DNA of 32,000 nucleotides, from assembly GCA_048882505.1 (NCBI GenBank), contig JBHLRO010000004.1, positions 110,193 to 142,192 of the forward strand, read 5' to 3'. Made by a program: the position numbers and the translations under genes. The notes beneath the pieces are model-generated. The model was not told the origin of the DNA. It made no database searches and saw nothing but the letters and a program-made list of their open reading frames with translations. The first letter of the stretch is position 1, and every line of letters starts with the position of its first letter. This document shows, one piece after another, positions 11,715 through 12,725 of this stretch. Origin of the DNA: Candidatus Thorarchaeota archaeon (GTDB lineage: Archaea > Asgardarchaeota > Heimdallarchaeia > Hodarchaeales > Hodarchaeaceae).

Positions 11715-12725
11715 ATGATCTTTGCACTGGGTTCACCTGTGAGTGCTCGTTGTCGACCTTGGACATTCGATTGGGCCATTAAACCTGATGCTTTGATGAT
11801 TTCTGCCATTGATTTTCTATCTAGTCCACGATTATTGGAAAGAGTGAAAAAAAAAGGGATTCGGGAGTATTTAGGTTGGGATGGAAAAATCATTTGTGAT
11901 TCTGGGGCGTTTTCAGCATTAAATCGGAAAAGAAAAACAGATTTAGACATTGAAAGGCTAAAAGAGATTTATCTTGAACTTAATGCGCAAGATGCCTCTA
12001 TTTTCAAAATCACTTTAGATTTTCCTGATGACAAGATCGTGAGTAATTACCGCAAATTATTTTCCCTCGGAATCCATCCAGTAATTCCATATGACAAACT
12101 GGAATTGATTGATGAAATCAATCAGGAATTTGGGGCACCTAAGTGGTTTTTTATTGGTAGATTAGTTCCTCTGATGCGTGGGGGAGGTAATCAGAGGGAA
12201 CGTCTATTTTCTGCACTTCGTAGGTTTAGGAAATCGGTCAATATGTATAGTGAAGTGAAACTTTGGGCTTTGGGGGTGGGTGCTCCGAGTTTAATTCGAG
12301 AAATACCCACATATGTTGATGGCTGTGATTCGACTCGCTGGCGAATAACGGGATCGAATATGATTCTATTGCCGCATGGTGGGGAACGAGGTGTGGGTAA
12401 TATCACGAGATGGAGAGGTACAAAGCATCGAATCGGGAATGGTTCAGAAAAAGAAGTTGTGATCGATATTCTTAAACAACTAGATGAAAAATCACAAGGT
12501 CTGGAAAGCTTAGATGCTAGCTTACATGCCTCTCTTCTACCTAGGCCAGCAGTAAATGACCCAAAAAGCAGCCTTCCCACTATTGGAAACATCCTTCAAA
12601 CATTACGCGAATCCCAAGAAGCTATTACTGTAAAAGACCTGGAGCGTCTATTTAGGACATCAGGTCGGCTTCGATTAATATTCAACTATTGGGCGGCGTT
12701 ATCCTTTAAAATTCCCAACTCATGA
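11715..12725 (+). CDS. tRNA-guanine transglycosylase-fold protein (TGT/DpdA-like base-exchange enzyme)
   Basis: GIREYLGWDGKIICDSGAFS, ITLDFP, FIGRLVPL, LWALGVGAP and VDGCDS line up in order with archaeal TGT motifs (GIH.LL...G.I..DSG.F, FLDIP, IGGVVPL, HLFG.G.P, VDLFDS). Both catalytic Asp equivalents are present (11898, 12327). No CxCxxC Zn motif and no PUA domain. Confidence 0.75.
   Translation: MIFALGSPVSARCRPWTFDWAIKPDALMISAIDFLSSPRLLERVKKKGIREYLGWDGKIICDSGAFSALNRKRKTDLDIERLKEIYLELNAQDASIFKITLDFPDDKIVSNYRKLFSLGIHPVIPYDKLELIDEINQEFGAPKWFFIGRLVPLMRGGGNQRERLFSALRRFRKSVNMYSEVKLWALGVGAPSLIREIPTYVDGCDSTRWRITGSNMILLPHGGERGVGNITRWRGTKHRIGNGSEKEVVIDILKQLDEKSQGLESLDASLHASLLPRPAVNDPKSSLPTIGNILQTLRESQEAITVKDLERLFRTSGRLRLIFNYWAALSFKIPNS

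What the first reader, a model, noticed from the sequence alone, without database searches (positions are those of the whole stretch)
11715..12725. TGT-fold enzyme with intact catalytic Asps but no zinc site and an altered base pocket (GRLVP)
Seen: no CxCxxC cluster; the terminal helix reads RLRLIFNYW where TGTs have the Zn-ligand His (..HN..); the pocket loop reads IGRLVP where archaeal TGT has IGGVVP. Known: that loop helps set preQ0 versus preQ1 specificity, and the Zn subdomain helps orient tRNA. Inference: the substrate is probably not tRNA, and the Arg may select a different, possibly anionic, incoming base.
Basis: partly seen in the sequence, partly recalled or inferred. Interest (0 to 1): 0.65.

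Follow-up and report, generated by a model that had tools for sequence, protein, structure and literature searches.

The report
Asgard DpdA-like enzyme, rebuilt base pocket
One order of Asgard archaea (Hodarchaeales) stably inherits an enzyme of the family that swaps a guanine in nucleic acid for a modified base; it looks like the DNA-acting, virus-type members and has a rebuilt base pocket, so these archaea may carry an undescribed DNA mark, but nothing has been tested at the bench.

Summary
ORF 11715-12725 (336 aa) has the TGT fold (Z 20 to archaeal TGT, 17.8 to DpdA), three invariant catalytic/base-binding Asps, no zinc site, and an invariant GRLVP loop. It is a single-copy gene in 23 of 24 Hodarchaeales genomes, beside a DpdC/YaaA-like DUF6884 gene and a DNA methyltransferase; the genome has its own canonical archaeosine TGT. 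'Not tRNA' is supported: the tree rejects grouping with archaeal TGT (p 0.0004), and the nearest look-alikes are viral DpdAs. Missing zinc is not new: characterised viral DpdAs lack it too. The Arg sits at the Gly230 column, which reads guanine O6, not at the preQ0/preQ1 specificity residues, which stay preQ0-type. It comes with loss of the other O6 reader (His/Gln to Pro125) and His to Trp184, so a compensated pocket is likelier than a new base. An anionic base (CDG) stays possible: phage phiST DpdA3 has Lys at that column. But this family lacks QueE/QueC and has a preQ0/preQ1 importer. The scan reported this module before on other genomes. Verdict: new variant of DpdA-type enzymes, substrate untested.

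The parts
11715..12725 (+). Arg-type DpdA/TGT-fold transglycosylase (here 'TGT-A'), 336 aa, no zinc subdomain, no PUA/C2
11898..11900 (+). Asp62, general acid/base (arcTGT and DpdA Asp95, bTGT Asp102), in DSGAF
12018..12020 (+). [quoted passage not shown]
12087..12089 (+). Pro125, invariant, replaces the O6-reading Gln169/Gln203/His181
12156..12170 (+). GRLVP pocket loop; Arg149 (12159-12161) is at the Gly196/Gly230/DpdA Gly207 column, L-V-P is the preQ0-type part
12264..12266 (+). Trp184, invariant, replaces the His/Tyr that positions the nucleophile Asp (arcTGT His227, bTGT Tyr258, Cap10 His226)
12327..12329 (+). Asp205, nucleophile (arcTGT Asp249, DpdA Asp256, bTGT Asp280)
12672..12689 (+). 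Terminal helix RLIFNY; Phe at the place of the zinc-ligand His
11234..11713 (+). DUF6884 (YaaA/DpdC-like fold, invariant CxxxK and SAxYG), one base upstream of TGT-A; candidate enzyme acting on the nitrile of preQ0
12726..15134 (+). 802-aa N6/N4 DNA methyltransferase (two Pfam stretches, DPPF motif), directly downstream; same locus in 19 of 23 loci
15175..17222 (.). YjbQ, a conserved 149-aa gene and TFB: the fixed chromosomal anchor of the locus, probably not part of the chemistry

Best explanation
TGT-A is an active DpdA-type DNA-guanine transglycosylase of the Hodarchaeales chromosome. It flips a guanine out of DNA; Asp205 attacks C1' and forms a covalent intermediate with Asp62 as acid/base; a 7-deazaguanine, most likely imported preQ0, takes its place. 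The adjacent DUF6884 protein then probably converts the nitrile (to the amide, as DpdC does, or to the acid). The Arg is one part of a three-residue rebuild (His/Gln to Pro125, Gly to Arg149, His to Trp184) of the wall that reads O6: the Arg side chain most likely replaces the lost His/Gln hydrogen-bond donor, so the base type is kept. Shown here: fold, catalytic residues, linked substitutions, one origin, gene order, distribution, precursor supply genes. Inferred: catalysis, DNA as target, preQ0 as base, where the Arg side chain points, the role of DUF6884.
For: Fold and invariant Asps. A canonical zinc- and PUA-bearing arcTGT and ArcS cover the tRNA job. The data reject one clade with arcTGT, p-AU 0.0004. 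Nearest atlas clusters are 81-100% viral, one with PF23859 DpdA; PHROG 887 hit at 1e-5; 12 of 27 wider-family members hit PADLOC DpdA. Neighbours: DUF6884 adjacent in 21 of 23 loci, DNA methyltransferase in 19, a His-type paralogue that groups with phage DpdA1 upstream in 16. The sister clade lies with DUF6884/YaaA (3 of 4 loci), AAA ATPases and, in two loci, PLD-type nucleases. Of 278 stored proteins, all 77 with Trp184 have Arg149 and lack His125; the only other two that lost the His have Lys or Asn at 149. Gln203 and the Gly230 NH jointly read O6 (PMC7687107); Cap10 uses a Lys on that edge (10.1101/2025.04.06.647259). Family f1 has the Vut_1/YhhQ importer in 20 of 22 genomes and no full-length QueE or QueC; family f2 shows the reverse: preQ0 is the common pool.
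Against: No assay and no DNA analysis. No model coordinates were available, so the direction of the Arg side chain was not measured. The co-change rests on two independent events only; the sign test is not significant. No DpdB and no nuclease in the locus. Strict vertical inheritance beside TFB (23 of 24 genomes) is unlike mobile defence islands. The aromatic residue that follows the nucleophile in DpdA (Phe265-like) is replaced by Asn-Met in this clade. A second, normal-pocket paralogue in the same genomes makes a redundant preQ0 inserter hard to explain.
Confidence: 0.45

Rival explanations
1. TGT-A acts on DNA but its base specificity has shifted to the anionic 7-carboxy-7-deazaguanine (CDG): Arg149 pairs with the carboxylate, and DUF6884 makes CDG from imported preQ0 as free base or in DNA.
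For: DpdA3 of phage phiST, whose pathway ends at CDG and which is proposed to insert CDG or DG (10.1101/2023.04.13.536721), has Lys at the same column, as do three other DpdA3 (K, K, R), while CP220 and immuto_2-6A have Phe. The preQ1-carrying phages Dp-1 and phiSM have an acidic SPAND loop, so this loop does follow base charge elsewhere. Arg-type enzymes keep DUF6884 beside them in two lineages. It would explain why two paralogues are kept.
Against: STSV2, the one genome known to carry dCDG, has a His/Gly pocket (98.5% identical to STSV1). BSP7 DpdA3 has the Lys but encodes QueC; phage Typha DpdA1 has Lys with His kept. No QueE in family f1. L-V-P stays preQ0-type. The DpdA3 alignment is distant and could be off by one.
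Confidence: 0.2
2. TGT-A is an editor: it recognises a base already modified by the paralogue and DUF6884 (ADG, CDG or a damaged guanine) and removes it or swaps it back for guanine.
For: Nucleophile and acid/base kept while both O6 contacts and the nucleophile-positioning residue changed; a normal-pocket paralogue exists to do the insertion; DUF6884 member YfjM binds DNA lesions (PMC11701544).
Against: No precedent found among TGT-fold enzymes in the papers read; the sister clade often has no second TGT nearby.
Confidence: 0.12
3. TGT-A modifies an RNA (a second tRNA site or rRNA) as a housekeeping enzyme.
For: Single copy, fixed locus beside TFB, 23 of 24 genomes; best structural match is arcTGT.
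Against: No zinc subdomain or PUA domain; union with arcTGT rejected; DNA-related neighbours in both lineages; viral DpdA look-alikes.
Confidence: 0.13
4. TGT-A is not a nucleic-acid base exchanger: it is a binding subunit for the paralogue or DUF6884 (like QTRT2 or the ArcS N-terminal barrel), or acts on a protein-linked base like Cap10.
For: Pocket departs at three positions; Cap10 also lacks zinc; TGT barrel plus nitrile-acting domain is the ArcS layout.
Against: All three Asps are invariant down to 44% identity and in the sister clade; basic hairpin and pI about 9 fit nucleic-acid binding; no CBASS or QueC-like gene in the locus.
Confidence: 0.1

Closest known systems
Viral DpdA1 (phages 9g, Seurat/CAjan type, Rosebush, Dp-1) and the DpdA of Sulfolobus viruses STSV1/STSV2
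   Same: Short TGT barrel with DSG, LD, xG and DS motifs, no CxCxxC and no zinc His, no PUA; nearest atlas and PHROG matches; STSV DpdA also sits beside a nitrile-acting domain, DUF5591.
   Different: They keep PxxH, Gly at the Gly230 column and His before the last Gly strand; ours has Pro, Arg, Trp. Ours is chromosomal and vertically inherited, and forms its own clade (100/99).
Bacterial DpdA/DpdB/DpdC (Salmonella Montevideo, PDB 7ui4, PMC10164549)
   Same: Fold (Z 17.8), Asp95/Asp130/Asp256 equivalents, Phe99 and Leu236 sandwich (Phe66, Leu186), xVP loop, DpdC-like neighbour (PADLOC E 0.0016).
   Different: His181 is Pro, Gly207 is Arg, no zinc motif, no DpdB, no DpdD-K restriction genes in the locus.
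Archaeosine TGT (Pyrococcus horikoshii, PDB 1iq8)
   Same: Best structural match (Z 20.0), catalytic Asps, preQ0-type V197-V198-P199 read as L-V-P.
   Different: No zinc site, no C1/C2/PUA, Gln169 to Pro, Gly196 to Arg, His227 to Trp; union rejected by the tree; the genome has a separate canonical copy.
Phage DpdA3 (phiST, CP220, BSP7, immuto_2-6A)
   Same: Zinc-less short barrel; four of six rows have Lys/Arg at the Arg149 column.
   Different: DN rather than DS at the first motif, Gln/His kept, first Gly of the loop replaced; only distant similarity (hhalign 96.8%, 16% identity).
Cap10 of type IV CBASS (PDB 9ntn)
   Same: Zinc-less TGT barrel with intact nucleophile and a basic residue reading the base edge.
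   Different: Lower structural score (Z 14.1); no CD-NTase or QueC-like Cap9 in the locus.

Membership tests
TGT/DpdA superfamily | TGT-type (beta/alpha)8 barrel | tested here: met
TGT/DpdA superfamily | Three active-site Asps and base-sandwiching residues | tested here: met
   D62, D102, D205 invariant; F66, L186
TGT/DpdA superfamily | Base-exchange activity | not testable with these tools
   needs an assay
Archaeosine TGT | CxCxxC plus His zinc site | tested here: not met
Archaeosine TGT | C1, C2 and PUA tRNA-binding domains | tested here: not met
   336-aa single barrel; fused longer forms were not searched, but none of 23 loci shows one (the L015 fusion spans an assembly gap)
Archaeosine TGT | One clade with arcTGT | tested here: not met
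   p-AU 0.000425
Bacterial DpdA | His181 reading the base | tested here: not met
   Pro125
Bacterial DpdA | DpdB partner and Dpd restriction genes in the locus | tested here: not met
   conserved neighbours in 23 loci; rest of genome not searched
Bacterial DpdA | DpdC (DUF328) partner | tested here: inconclusive
   DUF6884 above cut-off, YaaA and DpdC models only weak
Viral DpdA1/STSV type | No zinc ligands, no RNA-binding domains | tested here: met
Viral DpdA1/STSV type | Conserved PxxH His and GGxV loop | tested here: not met
Viral DpdA1/STSV type | Falls inside a clade with a characterised DpdA | tested here: inconclusive
   own clade 100/99; deeper branches weak (66/17)
Viral DpdA1/STSV type | 7-deazaguanine found in the DNA | not testable with these tools
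   needs LC-MS or long-read signal
DpdA3 | DN first motif with Gln/His kept | tested here: not met
Cap10 | Operon with CD-NTase and Cap9 | tested here: not met

The most novel reading that the evidence does not exclude
Hodarchaeales use two transglycosylases with different base pockets on their own chromosome: the His-type copy inserts imported preQ0, and the Arg-type copy handles an anionic or otherwise new base (CDG) made with DUF6884, inserting or removing it. That would be a stably inherited, nuclease-free, possibly reversible deazaguanine DNA mark in the archaeal order often placed closest to eukaryotes.
Probability: 0.22. Interest if true: 0.85.

Novelty: new variant of a known kind. Interest (0 to 1): 0.5.

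Why it matters
All deazaguanine DNA marks I found in the papers read are in viruses or in mobile bacterial defence islands. A core-genome DpdA-type enzyme in Hodarchaeales would point to a housekeeping DNA mark in close relatives of eukaryotes. The Pro/Arg/Trp pocket gives a direct three-residue test of what sets base choice in this family, including the open question of which enzyme can insert CDG (DpdA3 could not be assayed in E. coli, 10.1101/2023.04.13.536721). If the rebuild is only compensatory, it is an ordinary divergent DpdA.

Tried and rejected
Complex prediction of TGT-A with DUF6884 (GDP riding along): no verdict, score 0.00, no contacts given; it is no evidence either way and gave no view of the Arg. 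Pfam finds no family for TGT-A and sequence search of the PDB gives only E 0.4 to 1; the assignment rests on the fold and the wider profile. The weak QueC hit in the genome is a ThiI-like protein by its sequence, rejected as QueC. Profile comparison of DUF6884 with DUF5591 (ArcS core) gave probability 1%: homology not shown, only a shared short C-x-x-K-K motif. Test of co-change on independent pairs: too few events. DpdA2 of phage nt-1 was not located, so it is missing from the comparison. 'Zinc loss is unusual' was rejected. 'Arg changes the preQ0/preQ1 determinants' was rejected: those columns are L150-V151-P152. The Arg-type clade survives removal of the pocket columns from the tree (95).

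Full report
What is there. Pfam gives nothing and NCBIfam only a weak archaeosine TGT hit, but a model built from 60 homologues is confident (pLDDT 90.6) and matches TGTs first: Z 20.0 to arcTGT, 17.8 to DpdA, 17.5 to bacterial TGT, 14.1 to Cap10, then unrelated barrels (Foldseek agrees). Asp62, Asp102 and Asp205 are invariant and align with arcTGT Asp95, Asp130 and Asp249. There are three Cys and no CxCxxC; the last helix reads RLIFNY against RAxHN. GRLVP is invariant, and Arg149 is kept under five codons.

Who has it. Close homologues are all from Hodarchaeales-type Asgard archaea by their record names. The gene is single-copy in 23 of 24 genomes of the order, missing only from one that is 71% complete, and no close homologue was found in other families among 251 sampled Asgard genomes. 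Gene order is fixed: DUF6884, TGT-A, DNA methyltransferase, YjbQ, a small gene, TFB. DUF6884 is adjacent in 21 of 23 loci and the methyltransferase is present in 19. A second paralogue with a normal pocket (PVxH, GGMVP) lies head to head upstream in 16 loci; in this genome it is just outside the window, pushed away by an insertion. Other methyltransferases (Eco57I-like, N4) often flank the pair. The genome also has a full archaeosine TGT with zinc and PUA, and ArcS beside a radical SAM gene, so the known tRNA job is covered.

Is zinc loss special? No. The wider family contains members with the full zinc site, members with the His only and members with none. Phage 9g, Seurat, Rosebush, Dp-1, phiSM and STSV1 DpdAs have neither the Cys cluster nor the His. 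Papers say the same of phage DpdA (PMC5699537) and Cap10. It supports 'not a tRNA TGT' but is not new.

Where it sits. In a 94-row tree the Hodarchaeales proteins and a sister group from other archaeal contigs (loop GRLAK) form one clade (100/99), kept when the pocket columns are removed. Bacterial and archaeal tRNA TGTs form another clade, and joining ours to arcTGT is rejected (p-AU 0.0004). The paralogue groups with phage DpdA1 (95/92). Deeper branches are weak, so no characterised enzyme is shown to be the sister. Atlas searches by shape and by features return mostly viral clusters, one carrying PF23859 DpdA. The sister group lies with DUF6884/YaaA in three of four loci, with AAA ATPases, a possible ECF-type importer and in two loci a PLD-type protein; other wider-family members lie with NurA-HerA, QueC or an integrase. 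All of this points to DNA.

The pocket. Arg149 aligns with arcTGT Gly196, bacterial Gly230 and DpdA Gly207. In solved TGTs that residue gives its backbone NH to O6, together with the side chain of Gln203 (PMC7687107); DpdA uses His181 there (PMC10164549). The preQ0/preQ1 determinants are the next residues, and here they stay preQ0-type (L-V-P). Of 278 stored proteins, 77 have Pro or Ser, Arg, Trp together; 196 have His or Gln with Gly, Ser or Ala and His; the only two others that lost the His carry Lys or Asn at 149 and lie elsewhere in the tree. So both O6 readers changed together. The simplest reading (inference) is that the Arg side chain takes over the lost donor, as Lys154 reads that edge in Cap10. 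This is two independent events, not a statistical result, and I could not measure the side-chain direction.

The anionic idea. For: DpdA3 of phage phiST, whose pathway stops at CDG, has Lys at the same column, as do three other DpdA3, whereas CP220 (ADG) and immuto_2-6A (preQ1-derived) have Phe (Cui et al.); preQ1 phages have an acidic loop. Against: STSV2, which carries dCDG, has a His/Gly pocket and a DUF5591 partner; BSP7 has the Lys and QueC; Typha has Lys with His. Supply also argues against free CDG: the 22 genomes of this family have no full-length QueE or QueC but 20 have the Vut_1/YhhQ importer, while the two genomes of the other family have QueE and no importer. Both keep TGT-A, so preQ0 is the shared pool. 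CDG would have to come from DUF6884, whose chemistry is inferred only from its weak likeness to DpdC/YaaA.

Mechanism. Most likely (0.45) an active DNA-guanine transglycosylase that inserts preQ0 by the TGT double displacement through Asp205 and Asp62, with DUF6884 finishing the base and the pocket rebuilt by compensation. Rivals: shift to CDG (0.2), RNA target (0.13), editor of a modified base (0.12), binding subunit or protein target (0.1). About three quarters of the weight is on DNA.

Earlier notes of the scan describe the same module on other Hodarchaeales genomes and agree; they are not independent evidence. I had the fold, paralogue, pocket changes and missing QueC before reading them. 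Added here: the sister clade with the same three changes, the DpdA3 parallel, the STSV2 counter-example and the importer/QueE complementarity across the order.

Verdict. Real, conserved, not a member of any characterised subfamily, works most like a viral DpdA. New variant of a known kind; interest 0.5.

Noticed in passing
G000:C4:108601-109554 (L027), about 640 bases before the window start: The His-type paralogue (PVIH, GGMVP) that is head to head with DUF6884 in most relatives; here about 12 kb of other genes lie between.
   Followed up: partly
L002:1276-2160 and L004:481-1932 (G000:C1): A further TGT-like gene (Gln, GGLV, zinc site kept) followed by a winged-helix protein and a protein ending in a DUF6884-like domain: a second TGT plus DUF6884 pairing in the same genome, on a long branch of the tree.
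   Followed up: partly
window 174-8657: Very large LamG/DUF2341 protein; the real ORF (2979 aa) starts before the window (G000:C4:109910). Shared only with the closest relative L005.
   Followed up: no
window 12726-15134: Methyltransferase with two N6/N4 stretches; only the C-terminal one shows a clear DPPF motif. No nuclease gene beside it.
   Followed up: no
L030:8686-9351, L050:6721-7401, L051:1041-1706, L052:5574-6269, L032:3121-3795: A conserved 220-aa membrane protein (weak ECF S-component hit, E 0.006) with a DUF6364 gene beside TGT-like genes, and beside QueC in L032: a candidate new deazapurine importer.
   Followed up: partly
order-wide: Hodarchaeales family f1 keeps archaeosine TGT and ArcS (seen in G000) but has no QueE/QueC and has Vut_1/YhhQ: apparent preQ0 auxotrophy.
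   Followed up: yes
L035:8001-9095, L032:8001-8957, L037:3203-4315, L053:645-1604: Wider-family TGTs sit beside NurA-HerA genes; the Lys-type one in L053 is followed by a stand-alone DUF5591 (ArcS core), as in STSV1/2.
   Followed up: no
G001:C53:34111-35121: One TGT-A copy has an internal TAA; broken gene or assembly error.
   Followed up: no
L015:7989-9713: Apparent fusion of TGT-A with ornithine carbamoyltransferase is an artefact of an N-filled assembly gap.
   Followed up: yes
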